Part shown: positions 11,441-63,320 of the stretch, one piece after another
Numbering within the stretch: the first letter of the stretch is position 1
Layout: the number at the start of each line of letters is the position of its first letter
Virus record (IMG/VR): IMGVR_UViG_3300009008_000026
Coordinates: 1 to 64,000 of that record
Source of the DNA: a virus
DNA: 64,000 bases
Strand: one strand, 5' to 3'
Translations under genes and position numbers: made by a program
Notes under the pieces: generated by a model
Databases searched by the model: none
Seen by the model: the letters and a program-made list of their open reading frames with translations, nothing else
What the model was told of the DNA's origin: nothing

Positions 11441-12306
11441 TGAAACCGTTATTTATGTGGGCTGGTGGCAAGAACAAGATGCTCAAGAAGTATGCGAATT
11501 ATCTCCCTGAACAGTTCGATAGCTACATCGAGCCCTTCTTGGGAGGCGGTGCTATGTTTGTGTGGGCTTACAAGAAAAACCCCGAAGCGACATTCTTCCT
11601 AAATGATGTAAACGAAGACATCATGAGAATTTACCAGTCGATTCGCAATGACGTAGGCAATTTTCTTACCACACTGGACAAGTACCAAGAGGACTTCCTG
11701 CCACTCTCGAAGCCCGAGCGCAAAAAGTTCTATTATGCTCTGCGTCAAGAACACGCATACAACTATCAAAAGTGGACAGCCACAGAAGAAGCAGCAACCC
11801 TGTACTTTCTGATGAAGACGGGATTCAATGGAATCTGGCAGATCAACAAAAATACTAATGGTCGGTTCGGCACTCCGAGTGGCTTGTTAAATCAGAAAGA
11901 TAAGGTCTATGATTATGATAACGTGATGGAGTGGCACGAAGCGCTGCAAAAGTGCACGCTGATCTCTGGCGATTTTACTGATTGTCTTGAATACGCACAA
12001 CCTAATAGCTTTGTTTTTCTAGACCCTCCTTATCGAGGCTCCTTCACCCAGTACGGTGTTTTTTTTGATGACACGCTGCAGCTGAGGGTAATTAAACTAC
12101 TAAATGACTTGACATCCGCCGGCTGCCATGTTATGATGTCTAATAGAGATGTGGGAGATGGGTTCTTCGAATCTCGGCAGGGAGATAATGACCTTGTTTA
12201 TTTTGACGTAACGTACACTGCTGGTCGTCGAAAGAAAAACACGGATGGAACGCATAGCGCCAAAAAGGCTAGAGAAATTTTAATGATAGGAGAGCACAAT
12301 GGCTAG
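11440..12306 (+). CDS. DNA adenine methyltransferase (Dam/D12 class)
   Basis: 'FMWAGGK', 'EPFLGGGA', 'FLDPPY'. Confidence 0.9.
   Translation: MKPLFMWAGGKNKMLKKYANYLPEQFDSYIEPFLGGGAMFVWAYKKNPEATFFLNDVNEDIMRIYQSIRNDVGNFLTTLDKYQEDFLPLSKPERKKFYYALRQEHAYNYQKWTATEEAATLYFLMKTGFNGIWQINKNTNGRFGTPSGLLNQKDKVYDYDNVMEWHEALQKCTLISGDFTDCLEYAQPNSFVFLDPPYRGSFTQYGVFFDDTLQLRVIKLLNDLTSAGCHVMMSNRDVGDGFFESRQGDNDLVYFDVTYTAGRRKKNTDGTHSAKKAREILMIGEHNG
12109..12137 (+). promoter_or_regulatory. Sigma70-type promoter upstream of the recA-like gene
   Basis: TTGACA-N17-TATGAT with TG. Confidence 0.5.
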
Positions 12307-13450
12307 AAAAGCCAAAACTAAACCCGGAAAGGTTTCAATGCAAGACTTGAGAAAGCTTGTTAATCAAAAAGCCGGCAGAAATGTCGCACACAACTTAACG
12401 GAAGCAAATCCGACAGAGGTAAAAGATTGGATCCCAACAGGTTCTAGGTGGTTAGATAGTATTATTTGCAAAGGTCAGCTCGCTGGAATTCCCGTCGGTA
12501 AAATTACCGAGATTGCGGGGTTAACATCTACAGGCAAGTCTTACATGGCAGCACAAATTGCAGCCAACGCCCAGAAGCAAGGCAAATTGGTTGTATATTT
12601 CGATTCGGAGTCTGCGATTGATCCGACTTTCTTGGAGTCTGCAGGCTGTGTTTTGGATGACCTCATGTATGTACAGGCATCATCTGTCGAATTCGTATTA
12701 GAGATGATCGAGGAGCTTCTTGGTGCAACAGACGAGAAGATCTTGTTTGTGTGGGATTCGCTGGCTTTCACTCCCGCTATTTCCGATGTAGAGGGTGATT
12801 TCAACCCTCAATCATCTATGGCAGTGAAAGCACGTATTCTTGCTAAGGGAATGTCTAAGATTACTCTCCCGATTGCAGATAAGCAAGCAACTCTCCTCGT
12901 ATTGAACCAGCTTAAGGACAACATTACCAGCGGCCCTCTCGCCCGTATAACGGCGATGACTACGCCCTATATCACTCCGGGTGGTAAAGCTTTGGTCTAT
13001 TCATATAGTCTAAGGATCTGGCTCACAGGAAGAAAGGCCAAATCAGCTTTTGTGTTGGACGATAAGGGCTATCGAGTAGGATCGGAGGTTAAGGTCAGGA
13101 TTGAAAAATCTAGATTTGGAACTCAGGGTCGCAATTGTGCTTTTCGCATCATGTGGGGCTCAGTTGATATCGGCGTTCGAGACGAAGAAAGCTGGTTTGA
13201 TGCCATTAAAGGATCTGATAATCTCACTTCTGCGGGGGCGTGGTATACACTTAAAACAGACAATTATGAAAAGAAATTTCAACCATCTAAGTGGGTTGCA
13301 CTAATTAATAGCGATACCGAGTTCCGCGAGCATGTTGAAAAAATCATGGATGAAGAGATTATCTATAGATTCAGCAACCGATCCGGCAACGCAACAGACT
13401 TTTATGAAGAACCAGAAGATATTTCAATACCAGTAGGAAAAACAAAATGA
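12299..13450 (+). CDS. recA: RecA/UvsX recombinase
   Basis: 'IPTGS..LD', Walker A 'GLTSTGKS', 'YFDSE', 'VWDSLA', 'TPGGKAL', 'AGAWY'. Confidence 0.92.
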   Translation: MARKAKTKPGKVSMQDLRKLVNQKAGRNVAHNLTEANPTEVKDWIPTGSRWLDSIICKGQLAGIPVGKITEIAGLTSTGKSYMAAQIAANAQKQGKLVVYFDSESAIDPTFLESAGCVLDDLMYVQASSVEFVLEMIEELLGATDEKILFVWDSLAFTPAISDVEGDFNPQSSMAVKARILAKGMSKITLPIADKQATLLVLNQLKDNITSGPLARITAMTTPYITPGGKALVYSYSLRIWLTGRKAKSAFVLDDKGYRVGSEVKVRIEKSRFGTQGRNCAFRIMWGSVDIGVRDEESWFDAIKGSDNLTSAGAWYTLKTDNYEKKFQPSKWVALINSDTEFREHVEKIMDEEIIYRFSNRSGNATDFYEEPEDISIPVGKTK

Positions 13451-51552: not shown

Positions 51553-51789
51553 ATGATACTCAAGCGAGGGGATTTAATAAGATGGGTAGTAGATTGGGGA
51601 GTGTATGCGATATCTACCAAAGGAGAGGCTCACGGCAGATATCCCCAGTATTGTCATGGGATTGTGATAGAAGTGTCGCGAAAAGATCCCAAAGCTGTGG
51701 TGGTGTTTTGTTACGATTGCAAAAACGAGGGGGGCTACACTATTCTCCACTCCTCGCGCGACGAGTTTGAGCTTTTAAGTGAGGGATAG
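51553..51789 (+). CDS. Small SH3/KOW-like protein (GDLV family)
   Basis: 'LKRGDLIRW...GIVIEV...FELLSE'; preceded by TCTATTTAT at 51541. Confidence 0.6.
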   Translation: MILKRGDLIRWVVDWGVYAISTKGEAHGRYPQYCHGIVIEVSRKDPKAVVVFCYDCKNEGGYTILHSSRDEFELLSEG

Positions 51790-51794
51790 ATAAA

Positions 51795-52070
51795 ATGGAG
51801 AAAGCCCCAATACAAGATGTCATCGAGGCATTAAAGAAAGAGTTTAAAATATGGTATCCCCTTGATTTCCAGCCCAAGCAATCAACCGATGATGGAGGAA
51901 CTCATGTTGAAGTATTTATTGAAAGAGAAGTGCCCGACGAGAGACTAGATGGGTGGCTACTGGAGGTTATCCCTTCTGGTAAATATATGGGTTGGCGATT
52001 GATTATTACAAAAGTTCCATTGGGCTATATTGATTTATTTATAAGAAATGAGAAGAAAAAGGATTGGTAA
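51795..52070 (+). CDS. Hypothetical protein
   Basis: ORF with RBS. Confidence 0.6.
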   Translation: MEKAPIQDVIEALKKEFKIWYPLDFQPKQSTDDGGTHVEVFIEREVPDERLDGWLLEVIPSGKYMGWRLIITKVPLGYIDLFIRNEKKKDW

Positions 52071-52418
52071 GTGAAGGTAGGTGATCTAGTGGCACTCCCG
52101 CGCAGAAGAAACAAAGGCATGGGGATCATACTAAGATATAAGGAGAGTTCCGAACGACTGAATCTTCATTTTAAATCTTTGTCATCCCCGTCAGACTACT
52201 GGTCGGGTTCTCGGAACGACAATGGGATGTTTCTAGGTGAAAGTGTGGAGTTTGCTGATGCATTTTTTCTGTTTAATAATTGGACCAACCATCCCCCGCG
52301 CATTAAAACGAAGTTCGTGTACATAAAATGGTTTCAAAAACCTTCTGAATACCACGTTAAAAAGGTTCGACTCGATGAGGGATGGTATCCTTTAGAATGG
52401 GTTCAAAAAATTGAATAG
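52071..52418 (+). CDS. SH3/KOW-like protein (MKVGDLV family)
   Basis: 'MKVGDLV...GMGIIL...YIKWF...WY'. Confidence 0.65.
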   Translation: MKVGDLVALPRRRNKGMGIILRYKESSERLNLHFKSLSSPSDYWSGSRNDNGMFLGESVEFADAFFLFNNWTNHPPRIKTKFVYIKWFQKPSEYHVKKVRLDEGWYPLEWVQKIE

Positions 52419-52430
52419 TATACTTATAAT

Positions 52431-52697
52431 GTGGATAATAGTGAGGATATAGTTTTTGGTGTGGGGGATCTCGTACTTTGCACGTATGATTTATACGAAG
52501 GGTATGCCTATTTTTTCGAGTTGCCTCACGAAGACTATCCTTTTCGAGGAATTATAGTCGAGGTTCAAGAATACACTGAGTTTGCAGATCGTTTTGGCTA
52601 TGATGAGCTTTATATAGTTCGCTGCTTTGACGGAAATGAGCGTTTCTTTACCCATAGTGAGCTAAAACTTCTTTCTCATGCTAAAAAAGTTCCTTGA
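52431..52697 (+). CDS. SH3/KOW-like protein (GDLV family)
   Basis: 'VGDLV...GIIVEV...YIVRC...ELKLLS'. Confidence 0.65.
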   Translation: MDNSEDIVFGVGDLVLCTYDLYEGYAYFFELPHEDYPFRGIIVEVQEYTEFADRFGYDELYIVRCFDGNERFFTHSELKLLSHAKKVP

Positions 52698-52722
52698 CAA
52701 AGAACAGACAGCGTGATAAGTT
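52694..52722 (+). promoter_or_regulatory. Sigma70-type promoter
   Basis: TTGACA-N17-TAAGTT with TG. Confidence 0.5.
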
Positions 52723-52761
52723 AAATATACCATAGCAATAATGCTAATAAGGAGAGAGAGA

Positions 52762-52956
52762 ATGAGCAATAATATACCAAATACTTTGGACAATCTGATC
52801 ACGCTGTTGGAAAACACCCGCGATGATTACACTAAATTCTATGATAGCGGAAACGCTAGCGCAGGAACTCGTGTTCGCAAGGTGATGCAAGAGGTTAAGG
52901 CCCTCGCACAAGAAACTCGCTTGCATGTGCAAGAGACTAAAAATAACAATACTTAA
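52762..52956 (+). CDS. Histone H1-like Hc1-family nucleoid protein
   Basis: 'KFY..GNASAGTRVRK.MQEVK.LAQE.R' is the Hc1 core. Confidence 0.8.
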   Translation: MSNNIPNTLDNLITLLENTRDDYTKFYDSGNASAGTRVRKVMQEVKALAQETRLHVQETKNNNT

Positions 52957-52972
52957 TGACAGAATCCGCAGG

Positions 52973-53006
52973 GAGGCATGGGTTCACAGATGCCTCACAC
53001 ATTTTT
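52973..53006 (+). terminator. Hairpin, possible terminator
   Basis: GAGGCAT / ATGCCTC stem, T-run 5 nt downstream. Confidence 0.4.
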
Positions 53007-53028
53007 AAATAATTAAAAGGAAAAAGAA

Positions 53029-53289
53029 ATGGAAAAACTTAAATCACTTTGGTCGCGTTGGAAGGTACAGATTAGCTTTGTGGCAGGAGCCTTGGTCGTA
53101 TCAACGACGATGGGAACTTGTTCTTTCGAGCCAGCAGTATCCCCAGCAACGACTGGAACAACAACCACAGAAACCACCACTGGCACAACCACTGGCACGA
53201 CTGACGGGGCGATTGTGGGTGCGGTTGACGCGATTAATGACATCGCCACCGGCACAACCGACAACACTACGGACAATAACGGTCAGTAG
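53029..53289 (+). CDS. Thr-rich small membrane or secreted protein
   Basis: Hydrophobic N-terminal segment then TTTE/TTTG repeats. Confidence 0.6.
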   Translation: MEKLKSLWSRWKVQISFVAGALVVSTTMGTCSFEPAVSPATTGTTTTETTTGTTTGTTDGAIVGAVDAINDIATGTTDNTTDNNGQ

Positions 53290-53501
53290 AGAAGCGAAAG
53301 AAAAAATGTAGAGTGGCTGAGTGTTGCAAGGTAGGAGTCGGGTTCAATGCCTATACTGAACTCTGAGCGGTTGAAGAATGATCTTTAACGCGAAACCTTT
53401 AACCCTTCAAGGTCAAGTGTATAGCACAAAACACACGGGAATTGAAATTAGGCTAGCGAGATGCAGACGCGGCGAAAACAGCGAGCACGACACTTGGCCA
53501 C

Positions 53502-53556
53502 TTTACATTTGCTTTACAATTAACTTCTTGACATGTCATGCGCGGTGTGCTAAATT
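53502..53556 (+). promoter_or_regulatory. Triple-box promoter, variant copy
   Basis: TTTACA-N5-TTTACA-N9-TTGACA-N17-TAAATT. Confidence 0.55.
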
Positions 53557-53579
53557 GTAAAGAGATAAGAGAGAAAAAC

Positions 53580-53753
53580 ATGACATACACAGTAATCTTC
53601 GCAGACCGCAAAAATAATCTAAAAACCGAAGTCTTCTTCGGAGCAGCATGCCACAAGAGGGCATACACAGAGGCCAAGCAAGAGTTTGGGACAGTGGTTG
53701 CCCTTATCACGGGCAATCAGTTGGTCTACACCAGCGCGCCCAGTCGCGCGTAA
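53580..53753 (+). CDS. Small hypothetical protein
   Basis: ATG just downstream of the promoter. Confidence 0.55.
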   Translation: MTYTVIFADRKNNLKTEVFFGAACHKRAYTEAKQEFGTVVALITGNQLVYTSAPSRA

Positions 53754-53762
53754 TTAATAACG

Positions 53763-53837
53763 TGCCCTTAGCTCAGTTGGTAGAGCAATCGACTGTTAAT
53801 CGATGGGTCGCAAGTTCAAGTCTTGCAGGGGCAGCCA
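53763..53837 (+). tRNA. tRNA-Asn (GTT)
   Basis: D-arm GCTC/GAGC, anticodon arm ATCGA-CTGTTAA-TCGAT, T-arm GCAAG-TTCAAGT-CTTGC, encoded CCA; the acceptor/D-arm linker is one nt short. Confidence 0.88.
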
Positions 53838-53993
53838 TTTTTGTAGGATATGCCGCCCTACAGATACAAACAGAATCATTCAGATTCAAAATAATTAATC
53901 ATCATTGTCATTAGGCGCACAATGATTAGCGTTATAACAAGGAGTTTAAGATGCTACATAAAATGAGATGTACACGATTTTTTTCATTAAAAT

Positions 53994-54314
53994 ATGGTTA
54001 AAAAAAGTAAAACATGCAGAAATGCAAAACATGAATTTAAGAGTGAGTACGATAGCAGAGAAGAAGCACAACGATCAGCAGATTACGTCATGAAGAAGTT
54101 CGGTGGATTCGCTGAACCAGTGAAATGCTGGAATTGCAGAAAATGGCACTTAGGAATTGATTCCTGCGAGTGTTCCTATTGCACACCCAGATACGGACTC
54201 GGAACAAAGACACTATTTACTTCGTATGCCGCGGCCAAGTTCATGGCTAGTAAATTTGACCAGTCAGTTTATGAATGCCCGCATGATTTTGGTTATCACT
54301 TAACATCACATTAA
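53994..54314 (+). CDS. Cys/His-rich protein with two similar Zn-binding units
   Basis: 'Y.S.EEA...CWNCRKWHL' and 'F.S..AA...YECP...YHLT'. Confidence 0.65.
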   Translation: MVKKSKTCRNAKHEFKSEYDSREEAQRSADYVMKKFGGFAEPVKCWNCRKWHLGIDSCECSYCTPRYGLGTKTLFTSYAAAKFMASKFDQSVYECPHDFGYHLTSH

Positions 54315-54398
54315 CATATAGGGCATACCACTTGCATGGAGACAAGCACAGGACATAAATAGCAGTAGCTAGACGCTGAACACTAACCCCCTCAAACT

Positions 54399-54474
54399 GC
54401 GCCCGTAGCTCAGGGGTTAGAGCGTTGTTCTTATAAAGCAGATGTCATGGGTTCAAATCCCATCGGGCGCACCA
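54399..54474 (+). tRNA. tRNA-Ile (TAT anticodon)
   Basis: GCGCCCG/CGGGCGC acceptor, loop CTTATAA, T-arm ATGGG-TTCAAAT-CCCAT, discriminator A plus CCA. Confidence 0.88.
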
Positions 54475-54501
54475 CTTCACCACCAACAAAGAGAGAGAAA
54501 C

Positions 54502-54729
54502 ATGTCGCACCATTATGCAGAATTTCGGGAATCAGTCTGGTCAGCCATGACGGGAAAAGAGGAGGATTATACTATTTTGGAGTTTAATCATAACACGAAG
54601 GAATATAAAACGCTGACCACCATCTCGGCGGTTAGCCCTGATGTAGCTAAACTGAAATACATCAAAGAAAGCAAATGGAGTTCTTCACCAGAGACATGCT
54701 TGTTTGTTAAAACACCGATCTGTAGATAA
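54502..54729 (+). CDS. Hypothetical protein
   Basis: ATG after the tRNA; the longer ORF-track start overlaps the tRNA. Confidence 0.6.
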   Translation: MSHHYAEFRESVWSAMTGKEEDYTILEFNHNTKEYKTLTTISAVSPDVAKLKYIKESKWSSSPETCLFVKTPICR

Positions 54730-54741
54730 AAGGGAAAAAGA

Positions 54742-54930
54742 ATGGAAAAAGAAATAGGAACAGTTGTATGGAAATCATACCTTACTTATCTTTTGTTCGG
54801 CACTGTGCGCGAGGTTAAGATTGAAGACGGTTGGCGTTTGCTTCGGATCGAATGGGATCTGCCGCATGCTGCCTTTAAAGTTGATGAATGGCAACGTGCT
54901 GGAAATGTAGGGGTACGGCAAAGAGCATGA
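54742..54930 (+). CDS. Small SH3-like hypothetical protein
   Basis: 'IGTVV...FGTVREV...LRIEW'. Confidence 0.55.
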   Translation: MEKEIGTVVWKSYLTYLLFGTVREVKIEDGWRLLRIEWDLPHAAFKVDEWQRAGNVGVRQRA

Positions 54931-55151
54931 ATAAGATGAATGTAGGAGATGTGGTAAGGCTTAACGACAAGTTCGGACACATTAAAAATAAGAATAATTT
55001 GAACAACGGGGACGTTGGATTTATTATAGCAAACGAAGTTAAGACAGAAGTAAATCCTTTCGGATCATGCATAAAAGTTCTCTTTACAGATGGAACACTT
55101 ATAACTGCCCACTGGGATAACTTTGAACTTTATAAGAGATGTGCAACATGA
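54927..55151 (+). CDS. SH3/KOW-like protein (GDLV family)
   Basis: 'MNVGDVVRL...VGFII...KVLFTDG...FEL'. Confidence 0.65.
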   Translation: MNKMNVGDVVRLNDKFGHIKNKNNLNNGDVGFIIANEVKTEVNPFGSCIKVLFTDGTLITAHWDNFELYKRCAT

Positions 55152-55432: not shown

Positions 55433-55654
55433 ATGAGAGCGATTAAAGTTGGCGATCTGGTTACATGGCGACATCCACGCGAGAGAGGCAGGAGCGAGCC
55501 CAAAGGGTGTGGTCTTGTTATCATGGCTGAGATGATGGGGGCACCCGACTACAAAAGGCCATGGCTTGTGGTAAAATGGTCTAATGGAAAAACACAATCT
55601 ATGCCAAAGTGGTTATTAGCTTCCAGAGTGGAGGTGATCAGTGAAAGTAGGTGA
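55433..55654 (+). CDS. MKVGDLV-family microprotein
   Basis: 'IKVGDLVTW...GLVI...VKWSNG...VEVISESR'. Confidence 0.7.
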   Translation: MRAIKVGDLVTWRHPRERGRSEPKGCGLVIMAEMMGAPDYKRPWLVVKWSNGKTQSMPKWLLASRVEVISESR

Positions 55655-55937
55655 TTTAGTAACACTCTCCTCAAGGGCACAAAGCCTATACTCCATGGCT
55701 CCTTGGTCGCCGTACAAAAGGCAAAAACAAGGCAAACATCCTGCGGTTATTGGGCTTGTTGTTGAAGTAAAAGAGAGTGATAATTTCTGGGATAAAGGCA
55801 GAGAACTTTTTTATGTAAAGTGGGTCAATCACGATGGCCCTCCAAGCCGAGAAGGAAGAGCGGGAAAAAACAGGAAACCAAAAGATAAATGTTTTTGGCG
55901 CACTGATTTAAAGTTTGTGTACAAAAAAACCTCATGA
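55641..55937 (+). CDS. MKVGDLV-family microprotein
   Basis: 14-nt overlap with the previous gene; paralogue of 61533. Confidence 0.7.
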   Translation: MKVGDLVTLSSRAQSLYSMAPWSPYKRQKQGKHPAVIGLVVEVKESDNFWDKGRELFYVKWVNHDGPPSREGRAGKNRKPKDKCFWRTDLKFVYKKTS

Positions 55938-56236
55938 GCAGCTTTTATTTATTTATTTTAGTTGCGCTCGCGCTGCTTTTATGTTATTCTAATTATAGAC
56001 GCTCACAACAAATAAAAAAAAGGAAAGAAATAATGAAAATCGGACAAGTAAAAACATGGCTAGACCAAGGGCCAGTAATCTTGTTAGGACAATGCAAGAT
56101 TCCAGATCCTGTATGGATTGGAGATAAGGAGGTTTATATGAACGACCCACATGCATGGCCATCTGAAATCGGCTGGACTGTGAAGCTCCTTGAAACTAAT
56201 GAGATTCTAGACGTTCACGAAGAAACACTTTCTTGA
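55934..56236 (+). CDS. Hypothetical protein
   Basis: N-terminal TM; second in-frame start with RBS at 56033. Confidence 0.55.
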   Translation: MSSFYLFILVALALLLCYSNYRRSQQIKKRKEIMKIGQVKTWLDQGPVILLGQCKIPDPVWIGDKEVYMNDPHAWPSEIGWTVKLLETNEILDVHEETLS

Positions 56237-56277
56237 CAACTTTCTTGTAGACACTCCTGTAAACCCTGTGGTATAAT
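56233..56277 (+). promoter_or_regulatory. Triple-box promoter (first box degenerate)
   Basis: TTGACA-N9-TAGACA-N18-TATAAT with TG. Confidence 0.7.
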
Positions 56278-56304
56278 ACAAACACTAATCAGAGAAGGCT
56301 AAAA

Positions 56305-56571
56305 ATGAATTGGAAATACGGATTAATTCTAGTGGAGGTAAGCGAGGACGGCGAGCAGTTGTGTGAACTGGTGGAGTTGTACAAGCTCGACGACAGTGAT
56401 ACATACGGGGCTTTTTGCCCCGCACGGATCATGTCGCCAGAAGAATTGAGCCGCGCCAACAAAGATGTCGAGCGCGATGGTGTTAACAAATACTTTTATG
56501 ATCACGGCACCTTCACCCGCCAGCCGCGCGAACTTCCGCAATACGAGTGGGATTGGCGACCCAAGGGATAA
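56305..56571 (+). CDS. Hypothetical protein
   Basis: First ORF after the promoter. Confidence 0.65.
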   Translation: MNWKYGLILVEVSEDGEQLCELVELYKLDDSDTYGAFCPARIMSPEELSRANKDVERDGVNKYFYDHGTFTRQPRELPQYEWDWRPKG

Positions 56572-56623
56572 ATAATGTTAAGAGAGTTCGAGCAAACAAA
56601 GAAAGCTATCGAAGATTCAGGGT

Positions 56624-56724
56624 GGAGCCGCCTGTTCGTTAGCTACTGAGAATAAATGCGATAACGAATGTGGTCTATAACCCGTAGCTGATCACTACAC
56701 TGGGATAGTCCACTTCCAAGCTCC
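56624..56724 (+). ncRNA. Candidate structured RNA (three-way junction)
   Basis: GGAGC/GCTCC closing stem encloses two hairpins. Confidence 0.35.
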
Positions 56725-56747
56725 GATTTATTCGTACCTCGTTCTCT

Positions 56748-56803
56748 CTGACATTCTCTTGACAATTTAGTTATAGACAACCCCACTGCACATGTGGTAT
56801 AAT
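56748..56803 (+). promoter_or_regulatory. Triple-box promoter
   Basis: CTGACA-N5-TTGACA-N9-TAGACA-N18-TATAAT. Confidence 0.75.
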
Positions 56804-56832
56804 GTGTGAACATTCAAACAAAGGAACAAAGA

Positions 56833-57078
56833 ATGATTAAAGAGTGTAAACACTGTGGCGATGTATTTCGCTTAGATGCGATTGCTAAGAAGAGTGCCGG
56901 CGGCAAGATTAACGAGTGTGCTGATTGCGTGGTCGAACTAAAGACCGAGACAGCAGTCAAGTACACAGGATTAGAACTAGAGGATACTGGTTCTTTTATG
57001 ATTAATAGGCATGCAACGGTTGAAGATCGAGAAAAGTATATGCATGAGCTTAAAAATGGTGTAGACCTTTCAAAATGA
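56833..57078 (+). CDS. Zn-ribbon hypothetical protein
   Basis: 'CKHC...CADC'. Confidence 0.65.
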   Translation: MIKECKHCGDVFRLDAIAKKSAGGKINECADCVVELKTETAVKYTGLELEDTGSFMINRHATVEDREKYMHELKNGVDLSK

Positions 57079-57317
57079 TTACTGTGTTTATTATATTGGT
57101 TTCGTTCTCTTTCGGGTTTGCAGCAGGATCATGGTTTAAAGCTACGATTTATGACAATCAGCCGTGGGAAGTCTTTCGTTGGGACTCTGGGGCACTGGGC
57201 TATCGCCGTGTCCCTATGGGCGCAATGTTAGGGCGCAATGACAACGTGCTGATGGGCTTGCGCCTGAACTCCGAACAGTTTCCAGCGGAAGGTATTCGAG
57301 TTGAAGGAGGGAAATAA
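57075..57317 (+). CDS. Membrane-anchored hypothetical protein
   Basis: N-terminal TM. Confidence 0.6.
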   Translation: MITVFIILVSFSFGFAAGSWFKATIYDNQPWEVFRWDSGALGYRRVPMGAMLGRNDNVLMGLRLNSEQFPAEGIRVEGGK

Positions 57318-57319
57318 AC

Positions 57320-57412
57320 ATGACGAAAATCGAGCTTATAGTTCTATTATCGGCTGGCGTGCTAATTGGTGCACCGCTGTCGGTAATTTTTAAACCCTTG
57401 ACATTCACTTAA
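57320..57412 (+). CDS. 30-aa hydrophobic peptide (not in ORF track)
   Basis: RBS AGGAGG; MTKIELIVLLSAGVLIGAPLSVIFKPLTFT, runs into the promoter repeat. Confidence 0.4.
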   Translation: MTKIELIVLLSAGVLIGAPLSVIFKPLTFT

Positions 57413-57453
57413 CAACTTTCCTATAGACAACCCCGATTAATCTGTGGTATAAT
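57398..57453 (+). promoter_or_regulatory. Triple-box promoter
   Basis: TTGACA-N5-TTAACA-N9-TAGACA-N18-TATAAT. Confidence 0.75.
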
Positions 57454-57485
57454 GTAGGCACAAATTAAAGAAGGAGTGAGAAGAA

Positions 57486-58103
57486 ATGCCAAACTGGTGC
57501 GACAACACATTAAACATTACAGGAACCTCGGAGAGTATCAAACAGATCGTCCAAGCCCTGCGCGCAAATAACTTCAACTGGAATGAAACATTTGTTCCAT
57601 ACGTAGATAGGAGTAGCTGGGGAACCAAATGGGAAGTGGATAACGGAACTCTTGAAGCCCTGATAGAACAGGACTATACCGAGGGAGATGACTTTTTAAA
57701 TGTTTGGTTTGATACTGCTTGGGGCCCGAATCTCCCTGTGAGCGAAGCCATAGCTAGTAAGCATGGTGTGGAGATCACACATAAATACGAAGAGGGCGGA
57801 AACGCATTAATGGGGATAGCCCACATCGACAGTTCTGGCGATTGTTATGATGAAGAGTTTGATACTTCTGACATCAAGCAAGTTGTAGAATTTCACGAGG
57901 GTATGATCCCAAGCCAGTATTTGGCCCTCACGAAGCCCGACGGAGCGAAAATTGCAGTAGGTGATCTCCTTTACCGCGATGATACTCCTTTTGGAGTCTT
58001 GTTAAGTGAGAGATCGCTTCTGCCTGTTGGCGCGCAAGTGCCCATCACGGTGGGAGAAATTGATGGAGTTATTTATTTTGATGAATACGGGTGTGATTTA
58101 TAA
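57486..58103 (+). CDS. DUF1281 / YubB ferredoxin-like domain protein
   Basis: 'MPNWCDN.L.I.G', 'WGTKW', 'FDTAW.P', 'YEE.G'. Confidence 0.75.
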   Translation: MPNWCDNTLNITGTSESIKQIVQALRANNFNWNETFVPYVDRSSWGTKWEVDNGTLEALIEQDYTEGDDFLNVWFDTAWGPNLPVSEAIASKHGVEITHKYEEGGNALMGIAHIDSSGDCYDEEFDTSDIKQVVEFHEGMIPSQYLALTKPDGAKIAVGDLLYRDDTPFGVLLSERSLLPVGAQVPITVGEIDGVIYFDEYGCDL

Positions 58104-58261
58104 TGAAAGTCGGTGACTTAGTTAAATGTGTTTCTGCTGACGGTGTTATTGGCTTGGTGGTTCGTATTAAACCCAACGCACATGGTACACCCATTTATGA
58201 GGTCTTAATCGGCTCAAACTGTTACCCCTTCCGCTCTAATATGCTGTGGAAGGTGGTGTAA
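58103..58261 (+). CDS. MKVGDLV-family microprotein (52 aa, not in ORF track)
   Basis: MKVGDLVKCVSADGVIGLVVRIK...YEVLIG...LWKVV. Confidence 0.7.
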   Translation: MKVGDLVKCVSADGVIGLVVRIKPNAHGTPIYEVLIGSNCYPFRSNMLWKVV

Positions 58262-58270
58262 AGTGAACAG

Positions 58271-58513
58271 TTGAGTGAAGAGTTACTATCACAAATTAGA
58301 TGGTTGGAGGATAAAATAAAGTCGCTCCAAGATCACATCTGCGAGATAGAATTTGAAAATCATCAACTTAAATTATCAATCGGCGGCGCTATCAAAACTC
58401 TCGAAAAACAGAACGAAGAGACAAAGAAAATAATTTGGGGCGCAACAGGGGGAACGATTACAGACTCCAAGAACTTCACCCCCTTGTCCGAGAAGAACAA
58501 GACAGGCGACTAA
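58271..58513 (+). CDS. Coiled-coil hypothetical protein
   Basis: Heptad pattern. Confidence 0.5.
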   Translation: MSEELLSQIRWLEDKIKSLQDHICEIEFENHQLKLSIGGAIKTLEKQNEETKKIIWGATGGTITDSKNFTPLSEKNKTGD

Positions 58514-58520
58514 TTTTCTC

Positions 58521-58576
58521 TTGACATTCACTTGACAACTTTCCTATAGACAGCCCCCATAATTCTATGGTATAAT
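58521..58576 (+). promoter_or_regulatory. Triple-box promoter
   Basis: TTGACA-N5-TTGACA-N9-TAGACA-N18-TATAAT. Confidence 0.78.
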
Positions 58577-58607
58577 GTAGGCACATTCAAACAAGGGAGA
58601 GTAATTT

Positions 58608-58979
58608 ATGGGATACCGTTCAGAAGTAGTTTTAGTCGTTGGCAAGGAGATCATACCACAGTTTATGGTCACTATGGCAAAGTCGCTAGCGGCGCGCGCC
58701 ATGTGTTTTGACGACGCCGATCGCGTAAAAGATTACGAGGAAGAGGGCACTATTCTCTTCCGTTGGGATAGCATTAAATGGTACGACTCCTTCGAGGAGG
58801 TGCAAGCCATCGAGGACTTTCTGGATTGGTGCGAGTGCGAAGAACTTGAGCTTGATGATGGAGTCCATTCGGCTATGGATTTCGTCCGCTTTGTTCGCAT
58901 CGGCGAAGATACGGACGATGTAGTTGAGCGCGGAATGGGATTCTGGAGCGTTGGCGTACGAAGGGCGATCTCATGGTAA
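58608..58979 (+). CDS. Phage hypothetical protein (MGYRS family)
   Basis: 'MGYRSEV', 'IKWY', 'FVRIGE..DD'. Confidence 0.7.
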   Translation: MGYRSEVVLVVGKEIIPQFMVTMAKSLAARAMCFDDADRVKDYEEEGTILFRWDSIKWYDSFEEVQAIEDFLDWCECEELELDDGVHSAMDFVRFVRIGEDTDDVVERGMGFWSVGVRRAISW

Positions 58980-59149
58980 TGAAAGTCGGTGATCTGGTAA
59001 ACAACCTTAACTCGGAGTGTGGACTGTTGGGGATTATTGTGGGCTGGCATGTCTCCACCCATGGGCGCTTTCCTCTTGTACACTGGAATGACGGGCGCAC
59101 AAGTTGGATTGTGGCGCATCGTGTGGAGGTGATAAGTGCGAGTAGGTGA
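58979..59149 (+). CDS. MKVGDLV-family microprotein (56 aa, not in ORF track)
   Basis: MKVGDLVNN...LGIIV...VHWNDG...VEVISASR. Confidence 0.7.
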   Translation: MKVGDLVNNLNSECGLLGIIVGWHVSTHGRFPLVHWNDGRTSWIVAHRVEVISASR

Positions 59150-59327
59150 TTTAGTAAAAGTCAAGGTGAAATACAACCGCGCCAAGATTGGCTTGGTAGT
59201 GGAAGTAGCGACTTACAACGGCAGCGGTGCCGTCTATGGATACATGGTCAAGCCTGTTGACGGAAGTCGCCCCATTATCATTATCGCGGAACCTCAAGAC
59301 ATGGAGATAGTAAGTGCAAGTCGGTGA
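59136..59327 (+). CDS. MKVGDLV-family microprotein
   Basis: 'MRVGDLVKV...IGLVVEV...MEIVSASR'. Confidence 0.7.
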   Translation: MRVGDLVKVKVKYNRAKIGLVVEVATYNGSGAVYGYMVKPVDGSRPIIIIAEPQDMEIVSASR

Positions 59328-59502
59328 TTTGGTTCAAAGAGGAGATGTTGTCGGACTGGTTGCGGAAGTCATGATTGCCAATGAAATCCAATGGATTAAG
59401 ATTATCGCCAACAATGGAAAATACGTTGGCGGCAATAATAGGTATTTTTCTCAAATAGGCTGGAAGGTAATAAACCCAGCCACAACAAAGGTAGAACAAT
59501 GA
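59314..59502 (+). CDS. MKVGDLV-family microprotein
   Basis: 'MQVGDLV...VGLVAEV'. Confidence 0.65.
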   Translation: MQVGDLVQRGDVVGLVAEVMIANEIQWIKIIANNGKYVGGNNRYFSQIGWKVINPATTKVEQ

Positions 59503-59834
59503 GAGTTTGGGTTATGAGCGGGATTCACGAGGGTGACATGTGGGCATCCACCCACTTAACAGAGAAAGGCGCTGTACTGGCGGCCATTGCCGATGTGCTG
59601 GAGTATTTGAACGTGAGCGATGCGGAGGGTGCCCTAGACGCTAGGAACCACTACGGGCGCTATAGCAACGAGGCAAATGGTGATCACACGGAGGCTATGC
59701 CATGGGATCCCAGCGAGCTAAGGAAGCTGAAATCGCCTGCTTTGTGGAGAATCTTTGCACAATGGTCAGAGCTTACGTGGGATAACTGCGTGGGCTATAG
59801 CGTTGAGGTCATGAAAACGACGATTGAAGCGTGA
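59499..59834 (+). CDS. Hypothetical protein
   Basis: Coupled ORF. Confidence 0.65.
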   Translation: MRVWVMSGIHEGDMWASTHLTEKGAVLAAIADVLEYLNVSDAEGALDARNHYGRYSNEANGDHTEAMPWDPSELRKLKSPALWRIFAQWSELTWDNCVGYSVEVMKTTIEA

Positions 59835-59844
59835 TAATCGTCCC

Positions 59845-59900
59845 TTGACACTCTCTTTACAACTTAACTATAGACAACCCCGATTAATCTGTGGTATAAT
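59845..59900 (+). promoter_or_regulatory. Triple-box promoter
   Basis: TTGACA-N5-TTTACA-N9-TAGACA-N18-TATAAT. Confidence 0.78.
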
Positions 59901-59929
59901 GCTAGCACATTCGGAACAGGAGTAATAGA

Positions 59930-60433
59930 ATGAAAGTACGGAACGCCCTCAAGAAAGTCAAGTCCCATTTCAAAAAACAAGGTATTGACATCGTTATCAA
60001 TCATCCAGAACAACACGGTTCTTACAAGTGGTCATTCGAGCATGATGGCTACGTCGGCTCGTTCTCTGTGAACGGCATGCATGGCTGGGATCCTGACGCC
60101 CTCGATGGCGAAGCTACCCTGTTTCACGTTCGCCGCGAGAACGACCACAGCGACCTGTACACAGACTACCACGCCGGCTCATTCCGCGATAACATCACAC
60201 AGGTATGTGAGAGCCTTCTGTCATCGCCTCCAAAGTATCCCGTTGGATCGCTGGTGCGAGGCAGACAGAACAAGCGCGCAAAGCGTTTCAACTTCAACGG
60301 TAAGGTGGGGCTCGTAACCTCTGCGGCTGATGGCTATTGCGAAATTCAATGGGTCGGCGACACACCTAAAGTCAACGCCTACTATTATGCCGTGCAACGG
60401 TACTCTTTCCGTGACCTTGAGGTGGCATCATGA
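59930..60433 (+). CDS. Two-domain protein with C-terminal SH3/KOW-like module
   Basis: C-terminal 'PVGSLVR...VGLV...IQW...DLEVAS'. Confidence 0.65.
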   Translation: MKVRNALKKVKSHFKKQGIDIVINHPEQHGSYKWSFEHDGYVGSFSVNGMHGWDPDALDGEATLFHVRRENDHSDLYTDYHAGSFRDNITQVCESLLSSPPKYPVGSLVRGRQNKRAKRFNFNGKVGLVTSAADGYCEIQWVGDTPKVNAYYYAVQRYSFRDLEVAS

Positions 60434-60642
60434 AAGTAGGTGATTTGGTACAGTTTACCTCCAGCGTTGGCGATTCTGACCAAAAGAAAGTTGGTCTTGT
60501 CTTTATGATTGATGAAACCATCGATCACGCAGACCCAGATGTTAAGTGGTGCGGCGTACGCTGGAATGATAGTCGATTATCGCCATTAGGATACACTGTA
60601 ACAGCTAGCCGTTATTTGGAGGTGATTAGTGAAAGTCGGTGA
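60430..60642 (+). CDS. MKVGDLV-family microprotein
   Basis: 'MKVGDLVQF...VGLV...VRWND...LEVISESR'. Confidence 0.7.
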   Translation: MKVGDLVQFTSSVGDSDQKKVGLVFMIDETIDHADPDVKWCGVRWNDSRLSPLGYTVTASRYLEVISESR

Positions 60643-60838
60643 TTTGGTTAAATGGCGCGGTTCTGTCGCAGTCGTTGTTAGGGAGAACCGCCACTATGTC
60701 AGGGATGGCTTCGTCGTCGATGAAGACAGCCTCACCGACGGCGCGCCGCTATTGCTGCGACATTTTAGCTGGGACATCCTTAGCGGGGATCGTGTGGTTC
60801 GTATCCTGCGTAAACTCCCAGTGGCTAATCCCTCTTGA
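60629..60838 (+). CDS. MKVGDLV-family microprotein
   Basis: 'MKVGDLVKW'; stop codon supplied by the promoter repeat. Confidence 0.65.
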   Translation: MKVGDLVKWRGSVAVVVRENRHYVRDGFVVDEDSLTDGAPLLLRHFSWDILSGDRVVRILRKLPVANPS

Positions 60839-60890
60839 CACTCACTTGACAACTTAACTATAGACAACCCGAATCAAACTGTGGTATAAT
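60835..60890 (+). promoter_or_regulatory. Triple-box promoter
   Basis: TTGACA-N5-TTGACA-N9-TAGACA-N18-TATAAT. Confidence 0.78.
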
Positions 60891-60921
60891 GTGCTCACTA
60901 GTTAGAGAAGGAGACAACAGC

Positions 60922-61152
60922 ATGACATTGACACCCTCGCGCAAAGCATCGAGTCGCACGAAGAACCGCATACGGGAACATGGGCCACACTTTGAAGTGG
61001 TTCGTGTTGACAACGCCATGTGTCTTCACGGGCGACAGGCGGCGTTTGTAGAGGCTCCCGATGGCTGGAGGGGCTGGTTGCCTCTTGATGAGCTACAAGA
61101 GACTGTAAGGGTAACAGAGCGCACCCTGACTAACGATCCGATTGATTGGTAA
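60922..61152 (+). CDS. Phage hypothetical protein
   Basis: RBS AAGGAG; 'S.RTKNRIREHG...WRGWLP'. Confidence 0.65.
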   Translation: MTLTPSRKASSRTKNRIREHGPHFEVVRVDNAMCLHGRQAAFVEAPDGWRGWLPLDELQETVRVTERTLTNDPIDW

Positions 61153-61161
61153 GGAGAGAAA

Positions 61162-61365
61162 ATGCAAGTAGGTGATCTGGTTAGATTTTATGAAAGCACC
61201 CACCCTGAATACAACGGGATTGTTATCTGGAGAGGTAGAATGGGCTCCCCAATAGAGACTGTGAAGATCCTCATGTTTGACGGATCCACCCAACTCAGAT
61301 CACCGAGCAGCATTGTGGAGATCCTATCACCAGCGCACAAAGAGGTGATACATGAAAGCCGGTGA
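61162..61365 (+). CDS. MKVGDLV-family microprotein
   Basis: 'MQVGDLVRF...GIVI...DG...KEVIHESR'. Confidence 0.7.
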   Translation: MQVGDLVRFYESTHPEYNGIVIWRGRMGSPIETVKILMFDGSTQLRSPSSIVEILSPAHKEVIHESR

Positions 61366-61546
61366 TTTGGTAAAATGGAGAAGCAAGACAAACCCAAACT
61401 ATTACGGGGAATACCGCGAGGCTGTTGGGGTTATTGTGAAAGTGTATCACATGGCTGATAAAACTATCGTCACTGACATCTTGATGGATGGTAAAATAAC
61501 CCGCTGGAGCAAAGCAAACTTTGAGGTGATCAGTGAAAGTCGGTGA
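61352..61546 (+). CDS. MKVGDLV-family microprotein
   Basis: 'MKAGDLVKW...VGVIV...DG...FEVISESR'. Confidence 0.7.
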   Translation: MKAGDLVKWRSKTNPNYYGEYREAVGVIVKVYHMADKTIVTDILMDGKITRWSKANFEVISESR

Positions 61547-61835
61547 TTTGGTCGCGCTCTCGTCTTATGCGGAGGGATTGATAGACCTTAAAGTGTATAG
61601 CTCCTTCTGGCGCGCCGAATACTTCAACAAGAAGCCACTGATGGGTATCATTGTGGAAGAGGTAAACTGGATCTGGATTGCCAAGCCATCACAGCAGCCC
61701 TTCCGTGTTCGCTGGCTCAATGAGCCTGACCCAAGGCTGATCCCCAATGGGCGCGGAGGGAGACACAGAGAGAACTACTTCACGCGCAAGGATCTGAAGC
61801 TAGTGAGAGCCCCCAAGAAGAAAAAGACCCCTTGA
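61533..61835 (+). CDS. MKVGDLV-family microprotein
   Basis: Paralogue of 55641 ('MKVGDLV.LSS.A..L', 'V.W.N', 'R.DLK.V'). Confidence 0.7.
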   Translation: MKVGDLVALSSYAEGLIDLKVYSSFWRAEYFNKKPLMGIIVEEVNWIWIAKPSQQPFRVRWLNEPDPRLIPNGRGGRHRENYFTRKDLKLVRAPKKKKTP

Positions 61836-61887
61836 CATTCACTTGACAACTTAGCTATAGACAACCCTACTTATTTTGTGGTATAAT
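61832..61887 (+). promoter_or_regulatory. Triple-box promoter
   Basis: TTGACA-N5-TTGACA-N9-TAGACA-N18-TATAAT. Confidence 0.78.
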
Positions 61888-61936
61888 ACTCTCGTATTCA
61901 CAAAGAACCACACACCCAATCCAAGGATAACATCAC

Positions 61937-63236: not shown

Positions 63237-63288
63237 CATTCACTTGACAACTTAACTATAGACAACCACACGATTTGTGTGGTATAAT
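63233..63288 (+). promoter_or_regulatory. Triple-box promoter
   Basis: TTGACA-N5-TTGACA-N9-TAGACA-N18-TATAAT. Confidence 0.78.
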
Positions 63289-63320
63289 ACCTTCGTATTC
63301 AGCACTTAGGAGCCCTCAAC

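What the first reader, a model, noticed from the sequence alone, without database searches (positions are those of the whole stretch)
55433..61835. Array of variable 'MKVGDLV' SH3/KOW-like microproteins joined by a conserved dual-coding DNA junction: candidate shufflable cassette system
Seen: at least 11 genes of 52-100 aa start M(K/Q/R)(V/A)GDLV or nearly so (55433, 55641, 58103, 58979, 59136, 59314, 60430, 60629, 61162, 61352, 61533). Looser relatives lie at 15081, 16839, 40705, 51553, 52071, 52431, 54927, 63027 and in the C-terminus of 59930. They share only a skeleton (GDLV, G-hydrophobic x3, often V.W.DG, then EV(I/V)S); the interiors are unrelated. Six consecutive pairs overlap by exactly 14 nt (55641-55654, 59136-59149, 59314-59327, 60629-60642, 61352-61365, 61533-61546) through one ~30-bp sequence, roughly GAGGTGATnAGTGAAAGTmGGTGATTTrGT. 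One frame reads E-V-I-S-E-S-R-stop and the other M-K-V-G-D-L-V. Known: GDxV followed by a beta-meander is typical of KOW/SH3-type small beta-barrels. Inference: the junction is at once RBS, start, stop, conserved protein termini and a homology patch. Recombination between junctions could add, drop or swap whole genes with expression intact, giving an integrase-free library of small binding proteins, perhaps for host takeover or anti-defence.
Basis: partly seen in the sequence, partly recalled or inferred. Interest (0 to 1): 0.82.

Follow-up and report, generated by a model that had tools for sequence, protein, structure and literature searches.

The report
Swappable overlapping mini-gene cassettes in phage
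An uncultured marine phage carries chains of tiny genes for one small barrel-shaped protein, joined by a short overlap that ends one gene and starts the next; related phages have gained, lost and replaced whole genes at that overlap, but what the proteins do is unknown.

Summary
Eleven genes in 55433-61835 start M(K/Q/R)(V/A)GDLV, or nearly so in 55433 (MRAIKVGDLV). Six consecutive pairs overlap by exactly 14 nt through a ~30-bp junction. The junction is a Shine-Dalgarno site (GGAGGTGAT, read as E-V-I), a start codon, and AAAGTCGGTGAT, with the upstream TGA stop inside GGT-GAT.

The proteins form one family not in Pfam or PHROGs, with an SH3/KOW/Tudor-like five-strand barrel. They are under purifying selection (dN/dS 0.20).

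The nearest relative (about 93% identical) has about 14 extra family genes. Four of the five content differences in the array have both edges in the junction or N-terminal patch, and the fifth sits at a repeated promoter module. Other relative pairs, and contigs from two independent marine studies, show the same pattern.

Patch codons are more uniform than protein coding requires. The phage encodes RecA-like and gp32-like proteins.

My reading is in-register short-homology recombination or replication slippage at two kinds of repeat: the coding junction and 56-bp early promoter modules. Both shuffle early-gene cassettes. The closest known system is PeSL shuffling in T4-type phages.

Protein function is unknown; a host-binding role is a guess. 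This scan has already reported the same system on at least eight other genomes.

The parts
55433..55654 (+). Family gene, 73 aa (MRAIKVGDLV...EVISESR); overlaps the next gene by 14 nt
   Evidence: HMM E 1e-14
55641..55937 (+). Family gene, 98 aa, long subclass with a basic C-terminal tail; last gene of its chain
58103..58261 (+). Family gene, 52 aa; its start overlaps the stop of the 205-aa lead gene by 1 nt. The relative REL has four extra family genes inserted exactly here
58979..59149 (+). Family gene, 56 aa (...VEVISASR)
59136..59327 (+). Family gene, 63 aa; present as two tandem diverged copies in REL
59314..59502 (+). Family gene, 62 aa; last family gene of its chain, with no EVIS tail
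60430..60642 (+). Family gene, 70 aa, joined to 59930 by an ATGA overlap. Its body is only 78% identical to REL between flanks of 95% and 92%, and it is replaced by 122 other letters in a contig of run X7
60629..60838 (+). Family gene, 69 aa; end of its chain
61162..61365 (+). Family gene, 67 aa (...EVIHESR)
61352..61546 (+). Family gene, 64 aa; modelled as a five-strand SH3-like barrel (pLDDT 88.7)
61533..61835 (+). Family gene, 100 aa, long subclass: barrel with a helical insert in the first loop and a basic disordered loop and tail (pLDDT 78.8)
55631..55660 (+). Dual-coding junction (SD GAGGTGAT, GTG start, TGA stop inside GGT-GAT). A contig of run X8 has an extra ~260-bp cassette inserted here, with the junction duplicated
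59126..59155 (+). Dual-coding junction
59304..59333 (+). Dual-coding junction, diverged SD half; edge of a homology block against REL (59299 and 59333)
60619..60648 (+). Dual-coding junction; block edge against REL (60614), and Logan contigs break here with several different continuations
61342..61371 (+). Dual-coding junction with an ATG start
61523..61552 (+). Dual-coding junction; block edges against REL (61511 and 61552). Contig L001 starts at 61534, and Logan contigs break here
56744..56804 (+). Repeated sigma-70-type promoter module (two TTGACA-like hexamers, then TAGACA, 18 nt, TGgTATAAT). One of 8 copies; the others are at 56248-56277, 57397-57473, 58518-58600, 59844-59910, 60831-60891, 61831-61908 and 63232-63301
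   Evidence: Insertions in L001 and REL are bounded by copies of this module
59930..60433 (+). 167-aa lead gene whose C-terminal ~65 residues resemble the family (VGSLV...LEVAS). Its GAGGTG serves as the SD for 60430
51553..55151 (+). Span holding four looser family members (51553-51789, 52071-52418, 52431-52697, 54927-55151) among other genes and two tRNA genes. Two more members lie at about 15081-15332 and 16839-17075
12299..13450 (+). RecA/UvsX-like recombinase; candidate enzyme for the exchanges
   Evidence: (PF00154, E 2.5e-33)
9290..10057 (+). gp32-like single-strand DNA-binding protein
   Evidence: PF08804, E 1e-15

Best explanation
The stretch 55.4-61.9 kb is part of the early, hyperplastic region of an uncultured marine phage. 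Related contigs reach about 200 kb. Strong sigma-70-type promoter modules each drive a short operon: one non-family lead gene followed by one to three genes of a single, very diversified family of 50-100-residue SH3/KOW/Tudor-like barrel proteins. Family genes are chained by a standard joint. The last strand of gene n (L-E-V-I) is written with the codons TTG GAG GTG ATn, which are also an extended Shine-Dalgarno site for gene n+1. The start of gene n+1 follows. The TGA that ends gene n lies inside codons 4-5 (GGT GAT) of gene n+1, giving the 14-nt overlap. This layout implies translational coupling, so a family gene needs no promoter of its own (inferred). The joint is the only DNA shared by otherwise dissimilar gene bodies, and it always sits in the same register. 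Any exchange between two joints therefore yields intact, expressed genes. Such an exchange could be homologous recombination by the phage's RecA-like and gp32-like proteins, or replication slippage between these short direct repeats. The outcome is a deletion, a duplication, an insertion or an allele swap. Comparison with relatives shows that this has happened repeatedly (shown). The repeated promoter modules play the same role for promoter-led cassettes (shown for three indels). The proteins are real and constrained, but only the barrel core is conserved and the surface and first loop vary freely. I think the most likely role is a diversifying set of early-expressed binders of host or defence components (a guess; protein function is not shown).
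For: Anatomy. Clade-wide: 715 family starts on the + strand and 0 on the - strand across 100 related loci and the contig. Of 576 unique genes, 262 are followed by a family gene with exactly 14 nt of overlap and 19 with 4 nt. Tail variants (SESR, NESR, SASR, NASR, SEGR) track the downstream start codon and codon 2. Breakpoints, W against contig IMGVR_UViG_3300025082_000009: blocks of 90-95% identity end 19 nt after a family start and begin 1-22 nt around one, in 8 of 10 edges, while only about 10% of positions qualify. The relative has 150-1500 bp extra at each of these sites. At 58103 and 60430 the W sequence is left flank plus right flank of the relative, joined within 11-19 identical bases. 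Pairs L087/L093, L044/L099 and L068/L072 show the same two-edged signature; L042/L045 and L014/L017 have one edge at a family start. Independent data: a 1961-bp contig of run X7 replaces the body of gene 60430 between 60449 and 60614, and a 3248-bp contig of run X8 has an extra cassette at junction 55629-55660. Contigs of X2 and X7 span 58103 in the W arrangement. Orthologous bodies have different family neighbours in 33 of 38 left-side and 27 of 33 right-side comparisons. Order differs in 3 of 8 locus pairs. Codon test: in 114 family genes with no open upstream frame, the patch codons are GGT 74%, GTC 49%, GAT 80%, AAA 85% and TTR 58%. The same codons are 30/21/63/51/35% in family interiors and 38/24/57/62/38% in codons 2-7 of 1248 other genes. 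Selection: dN/dS 0.20, against 0.25 in neighbouring genes. Synonymous differences per site run from 0.00 to 0.40 between adjacent genes, i.e. a mosaic history. Fold. Enzymes. Promoter modules and module-bounded indels.
Against: No exchange has been observed directly; everything is inferred from end states. In a chain of overlapping genes, selection for intact genes would by itself enrich indels at gene borders. Counting only gene borders, 4 of 5 events at family starts is not significantly above the 9 of 14 expected. Identical runs at the crossovers are short (10-19 nt), near or below what RecA-type enzymes use efficiently, so slippage or annealing may be the real mechanism. The biased patch codons could reflect shared ancestry or translation-initiation needs rather than selection for homology. 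All sequences are metagenomic assemblies. Logan contigs break at the two most similar junctions (60629 and 61533), so linkage across those two is not independently confirmed. No expression data were available. The protein function is a guess.
Confidence: 0.72

Rival explanations
1. The junction is conserved only because it has to be an SD, a start codon and the conserved first strand of the next protein. It plays no special part in recombination. Indels arise anywhere by illegitimate events, and only those that respect gene borders survive.
For: SD, start and the MKVGDLV strand explain most of the conserved bases. The tail is a passenger. With gene borders as the null, the W-versus-REL counts are not significant.
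Against: Synonymous positions of the patch are far more uniform than in any control, even without an overlapping frame. Recombinant joints lie inside identical runs, with each flank matching a different copy. Borders that lack a repeat (59499, 58271, 60889-61162) show no events, while every event lies at one of the two repeat types. Allele replacement of 60430 with both ends in junctions needs two in-register exchanges.
Confidence: 0.15
2. The differences in gene content are assembly artefacts: metagenome assemblers jump between the ~30-bp repeats and create or drop cassettes.
For: Logan k=31 contigs break at junctions 60629 and 61533 and show many alternative continuations. Contig L001 starts exactly at a junction.
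Against: The W arrangement at 58103, 58979, 59136, 59314 and 60430 is spanned by single contigs in another sample and in other studies (records 2, 4, 5, 6, 18). Variant arrangements are carried by contigs of 2-3 kb at depth 10-33 in independent studies (records 22, 24). The same pattern recurs in many IMG/VR assemblies. The extra genes in REL are distinct intact genes, not copies of neighbours.
Confidence: 0.05
3. It is a site-specific cassette system of the integron type, in which a dedicated recombinase recognises the junction.
For: Cassette-like units with a standard boundary. An HNH-AP2 endonuclease gene sits at 29061-29573.
Against: The junction has no inverted-repeat or hairpin potential (fold z-scores -0.55 to +0.77). 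No integrase was seen among the 40 ORFs scanned. Crossover points vary within the patch. Exchanges also use the unrelated promoter modules.
Confidence: 0.04
4. The overlap exists to allow occasional frameshifting that fuses neighbouring barrels into tandem-domain proteins. Shuffling is a side effect.
For: Natural in-frame two-domain fusions of this family exist (P0002, P0035). The upstream frame ends in the rare codon CGG followed by TGA.
Against: There is no slippery heptamer. The SD lies too far from the stop for a prfB-type shift. No data on protein products.
Confidence: 0.04

Closest known systems
PeSL (promoter-early stem-loop) cassettes in the hyperplastic regions of T4-type phages (Arbiol et al. 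2010, PMC2839356; Comeau et al. 2014, PMC4122927)
   Same: Short conserved expression signals are repeated between small non-essential early genes. Insertions, deletions and replacements between close relatives have their ends in these repeats. Exchange depends on general recombination, not an integrase. This window also has true promoter-module repeats that bound indels.
   Different: The main repeat here lies inside coding sequence and is translational (SD, start, stop, two protein ends), not a promoter plus terminator. It is about 33 bp with no hairpin. All cassettes encode one protein fold. The phage has a DnaE-type polymerase; no family B polymerase was seen in the 78 kb in hand. Mini-circles were not tested.
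KOW / Tudor / PsaE / NdhS small SH3-like barrels
   Same: Five-strand barrel of about 55-60 residues. VIA Z 8.6 to the Spt5 KOW domain (rmsd 1.4 over 54 residues), 8.5 to PsaE, 7.7-7.9 to NusG KOW, about 7 to Tudor domains. Weak profile hits to HERC2 Mib/Herc2, Spt5, uL24, Rv2302 and NusG.
   Different: No Pfam or PHROG family is matched at significance. Identity to solved barrels is 6-24%. These are stand-alone proteins with a fixed MKVGDLV N-terminus. No function can be carried over from the fold.
Translationally coupled overlapping genes (ATGA / TAATG type) in phage and bacterial operons
   Same: The SD lies inside the upstream gene and the stop and start overlap. Nineteen family pairs in the clade, and the pair 59930/60430 here, use the ordinary 4-nt ATGA form.
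   Different: The standard overlap here is 14 nt, with the stop downstream of the next start, and it is the same sequence at hundreds of junctions.
Mosaicism by relaxed or short-homology recombination in phages (De Paepe et al. 2014, PMC3945230; abstract only read here)
   Same: Phage-encoded recombination functions are proposed to exchange modules between diverged genomes.
   Different: That work concerns temperate phages, Rad52-like recombinases and longer diverged homology. Here the phage has a RecA-like protein, and a dedicated repeated patch sits at every gene border.

Membership tests
PeSL cassette system (T4-type phages) | Repeated sigma-70-like early promoter at cassette borders | tested here: met
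   Eight copies of a ~56-bp module with TAGACA, 18 nt, TGgTATAAT (11 of 12 consensus matches) and two upstream TTGACA-like hexamers. This feature belongs to the promoter modules, not to the coding junction.
PeSL cassette system (T4-type phages) | Stem-loop terminator joined to the promoter | tested here: inconclusive
   The simple terminator scan found none next to the modules (12 found against 11.7 expected, none adjacent). The coding junctions have no stable structure. No dedicated search was made just upstream of each module.
PeSL cassette system (T4-type phages) | Indel and replacement end points between close relatives fall in the repeat | tested here: met
   Promoter modules: a 504-bp insertion in L001, a 249-bp insertion in REL, and a 215-bp indel between L040 and L041. 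Coding junction.
PeSL cassette system (T4-type phages) | Mini-circles formed by exchange between neighbouring repeats | not testable with these tools
   Needs PCR or long reads from phage DNA.
KOW domain (NusG / Spt5 / uL24) | Significant match to the KOW sequence profile | tested here: not met
   No KOW hit among 10 members at E up to 1. Only sub-threshold profile hits to Spt5, uL24 and NusG chains, E 0.0035-0.19.
SH3-like small beta-barrel fold | Five-strand barrel superposable on solved SH3-like domains | tested here: met
   AF2 pLDDT 88.7 (64 aa) and 78.8 (100 aa). VIA Z 8.6, 8.5 and 8.1 with rmsd 1.3-2.3 over 51-59 residues. All top Foldseek matches are SH3-like barrels with TM 0.6-0.7, although every E is above 0.04.
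Integron gene cassettes | attC-type imperfect inverted repeat at the cassette border | tested here: not met
   Six junctions folded: z-scores -0.55 to +0.77, no shared hairpin.
Integron gene cassettes | Tyrosine integrase next to the array | tested here: inconclusive
   None among the 40 ORFs scanned against Pfam, but the contig is only part of the genome and not every ORF was scanned.
Translationally coupled gene pairs | SD within the upstream ORF, and a stop overlapping or adjacent to the next start | tested here: met
   Consensus tTGGAGGTGATcA followed by the start codon. An SD of 7 nt or more occurs in 25% of junction genes against 1% of long genes. The overlap is fixed at 14 nt. Actual coupling is not testable here.

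The most novel reading that the evidence does not exclude
The junction may be more than a by-product of translation signals. It could be an evolved adaptor that serves at once as expression signal and recombination site. Together with the promoter modules it would give these phages a two-tier, integrase-free cassette system that keeps a population-wide, rapidly reshuffled library of thousands of mini-barrel binders, used early in infection against host functions or defences.
Probability: 0.25. Interest if true: 0.85.

Novelty: new variant of a known kind. Interest (0 to 1): 0.62.

Why it matters
Phage early regions are full of small genes of unknown function, and how they turn over is known mainly for T4-type PeSLs. 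Here a coding overlap does the same job, so every exchange yields intact, translated genes. The family is large: 5579 clusters at 50% identity in public data. It is absent from Pfam and PHROGs and sits in abundant ocean phages. If the proteins are host or defence binders, they are a large natural library on a 60-residue scaffold with a built-in shuffling scheme. That would interest work on phage-host arms races and on protein engineering. It also warns that assemblies of such regions break or vary at the junctions.

Tried and rejected
- **Family libraries:** Pfam and PHROGs on 10 members gave nothing significant.
- **Named phage relatives:** blastn of the region and tblastn of a 542-aa protein and of a family member against 50,697 phage records gave no match. 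The DnaE and MoxR-like ATPase find only relatives below 32% identity. No cultured relative or host was identified.
- **ESM Atlas:** only unnamed viral clusters, then SH3-like families below 0.9.
- **Short joints in read laying:** those with 20-25 letters on one side come from other family genes that share the patches. I do not count them as recombinants.
- **RNA structure at the junction:** none.
- **Looser relatives:** 63027 rejected. 40705 unresolved.
- **Multi-domain hits:** P0003, P0006, P0009 and P0029 carry only weak SH3-superfamily matches (DUF1918, SH3_15, PsaE) and give no function.
- **Literature:** two searches found no paper describing this family or junction. This is a limited search, not proof of absence.

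Full report
**Observation.** They start M(K/Q/R)(V/A)GDLV; 55433 starts MRAIKVGDLV. It also shows the six 14-nt overlaps at the stated coordinates. The sixth junction (59304-59333) has a diverged SD half. The window is the first 64 kb of a single 77.9-kb contig of 46% G+C. The motif occurs 14 times in the contig, always on the + strand and in an open frame. A family HMM finds 20 members. These include six of the nine looser relatives (15081, 16839, 51553, 52071, 52431, 54927) and three beyond the window. The C-terminus of 59930 is supported by profile comparison only. 63027 is not supported. 40705 is unresolved.

**Anatomy of the junction.** The aligned starts, and 259 junctions from related contigs, give the consensus tTGGAGGTGATcA, then ATG or GTG, then AAAGTCGGTGATTTGGT.
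- GGAGGTGAT is an extended Shine-Dalgarno sequence. In the upstream frame it reads (L)-E-V-I.
- The upstream stop TGA lies inside GGT GAT, codons 4-5 of the downstream gene. That gives the 14-nt overlap.
- The tail variants SESR, NESR, SASR, NASR and SEGR are what the upstream frame reads when the downstream gene uses GTG or ATG, or K (AAA or AAG) or Q. The last four residues are therefore a passenger of the next gene's start.
- Genes not followed by a family gene lack the tail.
- The junction has no RNA structure beyond chance.

**Context.** All large ORFs are on the + strand. They include:
- DnaB-like helicase, class II ribonucleotide reductase, DnaE-type polymerase, GroEL-like chaperonin, and a MoxR/CobS-like ATPase with a DUF2201 partner;
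- a gp32-like SSB, two Dam-like methylases and a RecA-like protein;
- two ClpP-like proteases, an IMPDH/GMP-reductase-family protein and an HNH-AP2 endonuclease.

No deposited phage is close. IMG/VR holds 238 relatives of the ATPase, on marine contigs up to about 204 kb. The RecA-like protein has more than 4000 metagenomic relatives.

The region 56.2-63.3 kb carries eight copies of a ~56-bp sigma-70-type promoter module. Each is followed by a non-family lead gene and then one to three family genes.

**The protein family.** The members have no Pfam or PHROG family.
- In 100 related loci plus the contig there are 715 family starts on the + strand and none on the - strand, giving 576 unique genes with a median of 61 residues. 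They fall into 323 clusters at 45% identity.
- A profile of 136 members finds 5579 representatives at E of 0.001 or better among 1.84 billion clusters. Most are 50-70 residues.
- AlphaFold models of 61352 (pLDDT 88.7) and of the 100-residue 61533 (78.8) are five-strand barrels. The longer one has a helical insert in the first loop and a basic disordered loop.
- Structure searches return only SH3-like barrels: Spt5 KOW Z 8.6, PsaE 8.5, NdhS 8.1, NusG 7.7-7.9, Tudor about 7, and PetP at TM 0.67. Z values near 8 are at the tool's stated background for small domains, so this shows the fold, not kinship.
- Profile hits to HERC2 Mib/Herc2, Spt5, uL24, Rv2302 and NusG are weak.
- Only the first strand, the G-[IV]-V-V strand, one Val, a D-G turn and L-E-V-I are conserved. 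All other positions are near maximal entropy, and the first loop varies in length.
- Between this contig and its closest relative, dN/dS in gene interiors is 0.20, against 0.25 in neighbouring genes. These are real, constrained proteins.

**Test of the recombination idea.** The closest relative that covers the array is IMGVR_UViG_3300025082_000009 (REL), with 93% protein identity in the two non-family genes used as probes.
- The shared genes are collinear, but REL has about 14 additional family genes plus a few others.
- blastn blocks of 90-95% identity end at W 58122, 59333, 60449 and 61552, each 19 nt after a family start. They begin at 58104, 59299, 60614 and 61511, within 22 nt of one. REL holds 150-1500 extra bases at each place.
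- That is 8 of 10 block edges in 58.0-61.9 kb, while only about 10% of positions lie that close to a family start (my count).
- The fifth event (58267 | 58518) ends at a promoter module.
- At 58103 and 60430 the W sequence equals the left flank of one REL junction and the right flank of another. The switch lies inside 19 and 11 identical bases. At 60629 the switch lies in the SD half.
- Gene 60430 is only 78% identical to REL, between flanks of 95% and 92%. Synonymous differences per site range from 0.00 to 0.40 among adjacent genes. That is a mosaic history.
- Pairs L087/L093, L044/L099 and L068/L072 show the same two-edged signature; L042/L045 and L014/L017 have one edge at a family start.
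- Orthologous bodies have different family neighbours in most comparisons. Order differs in 3 of 8 locus pairs.
- REL also shows a recent tandem duplicate of 59136.

**Independent sequence data.** Logan contigs were laid from four runs of four different studies.
- They span the W arrangement at 58103, 58979, 59136, 59314 and 60430 (X2, X7).
- In X7, a 1961-bp contig has the body of 60430 (60449-60614) replaced by 122 other letters.
- In X8, a 3248-bp contig has an extra cassette at junction 55629-55660, with the junction present on both sides.
- Contigs break at 60648 and at 61523/61552 with several different continuations. Depth rises in the junction bins, as expected for a repeat shared by many genes and strains.
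- Joints with only 20-25 letters on one side were not counted.

**Does junction identity exceed what coding requires?** In 114 family genes with no open upstream frame, the patch codons are far more uniform than in two controls.

| Codon choice | Patch, no upstream frame | Family gene interiors | Codons 2-7 of 1248 other genes |
|---|---|---|---|
| GGT (Gly) | 74% | 30% | 38% |
| GTC (Val, position 3) | 49% | 21% | 24% |
| GAT (Asp) | 80% | 63% | 57% |
| AAA (Lys) | 85% | 51% | 62% |
| TTA/TTG (Leu) | 58% | 35% | 38% |

GTC is used for only 7% of Val at position 7 of the same patch. So the DNA is more conserved than the protein requires. This fits homogenisation by exchange or selection for homology, but it does not prove either.

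**Second recombination substrate.** L001 (98% identical in the ATPase) has 504 extra bases bounded by copies of the promoter module. REL has 249 extra bases at the module before 61937. L040 and L041, 99.8% identical, differ by a 215-bp unit holding a 38-codon ORF and a tRNA-like sequence. That unit is bounded by the start of a module. This is the PeSL pattern described for T4-type phages (PMC2839356, PMC4122927).

**Mechanism and its limits.**
- Shown: the layout of the junction, its spread through the clade, the position of content differences, and the presence of RecA-like and gp32-like genes.
- Inferred: translational coupling, early expression, and the nature of the exchange.

The identical runs are only 10-19 nt within about 33 nt of similarity. 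RecA-type recombination, single-strand annealing and replication slippage between direct repeats are therefore all possible for deletions and duplications. Allele replacement requires exchange between genomes. Selection for intact genes would also favour border-respecting events, and with gene borders as the null the counts in this one pair are not significant. The codon test, the flank-switch joints, and the absence of events at borders without a repeat argue that the repeats matter. The function of the proteins is unknown. 'Binder of host or defence components' rests only on early-region position, scaffold-like conservation and high turnover.

**Relation to earlier notes of this scan.** Eight earlier follow-ups on other genomes describe the same family, junction and junction-bounded turnover, and all name PeSLs as the closest known system. 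I reached the same reading from my own tests before I saw them. Two notes on this genome describe the promoter modules, which I confirmed. What this report adds:
- the codon-level test with two controls;
- contig-level variants from independent studies;
- dN/dS and the mosaic pattern of synonymous divergence;
- the flank-switch joints;
- the second structural model;
- the finding that promoter modules and coding junctions together form two tiers of cassette borders in one region.

Noticed in passing
window 53763-53837 and 54399-54474: Two phage tRNA genes, Asn(GTT) and Ile(TAT), lie just upstream of the arrays. L041 has an extra tRNA-like sequence inside a module-bounded 215-bp cassette.
   Followed up: partly
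window 55631-55660 and the other junctions: The junction contains GGTGAT twice, once in the SD and once as codons 4-5 (Gly-Asp) of the next gene, about 16 nt apart. The second copy is also complementary to the 16S 3' end. Whether it affects initiation or pausing is unknown.
   Followed up: no
REL (L100+L021 merged) 11461-11772: A 103-residue non-family gene with a Cys/His-rich C-terminus sits inside a family chain. It uses the same junction at both ends (tail ...TRNESR), so the junction can carry unrelated cargo.
   Followed up: partly
proteins P0002, P0035, P0004, P0057: Public metagenomes hold in-frame fusions of two family units (...LEVVKQVKVGDLV...). Arrays can therefore fuse into tandem-domain proteins. 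P0003 is a five-repeat protein of a related SH3-like type (DUF1918) with a Met at the start of each repeat.
   Followed up: partly
window 57486-58103: The 205-aa lead gene of one operon matches the ferredoxin-like DUF1281_C / Api92-like domain (E 1.8e-10). It is widespread in IMG/VR at about 30% identity.
   Followed up: no
window 58271-58513 versus REL 3277-3528: An 80-aa coiled-coil-like early gene has its only REL homologue at a different place relative to the conserved genes. This suggests transposition of a promoter-led cassette, or paralogy.
   Followed up: no
window 25648-29058, 39123-40703, 29570-30175, 36750-37406, 33890-35137: The phage encodes a DnaE-type polymerase with a PHP domain, a GroEL-like chaperonin, two ClpP-like proteases and an IMPDH/GMP-reductase-family protein. 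I found no named relative for this combination.
   Followed up: no
window 55641-55937 and 61533-61835: The long subclass (about 9 members in the loci) always ends a chain. It carries a Lys/Arg-rich disordered loop and tail on the barrel, which may point to nucleic-acid binding.
   Followed up: partly
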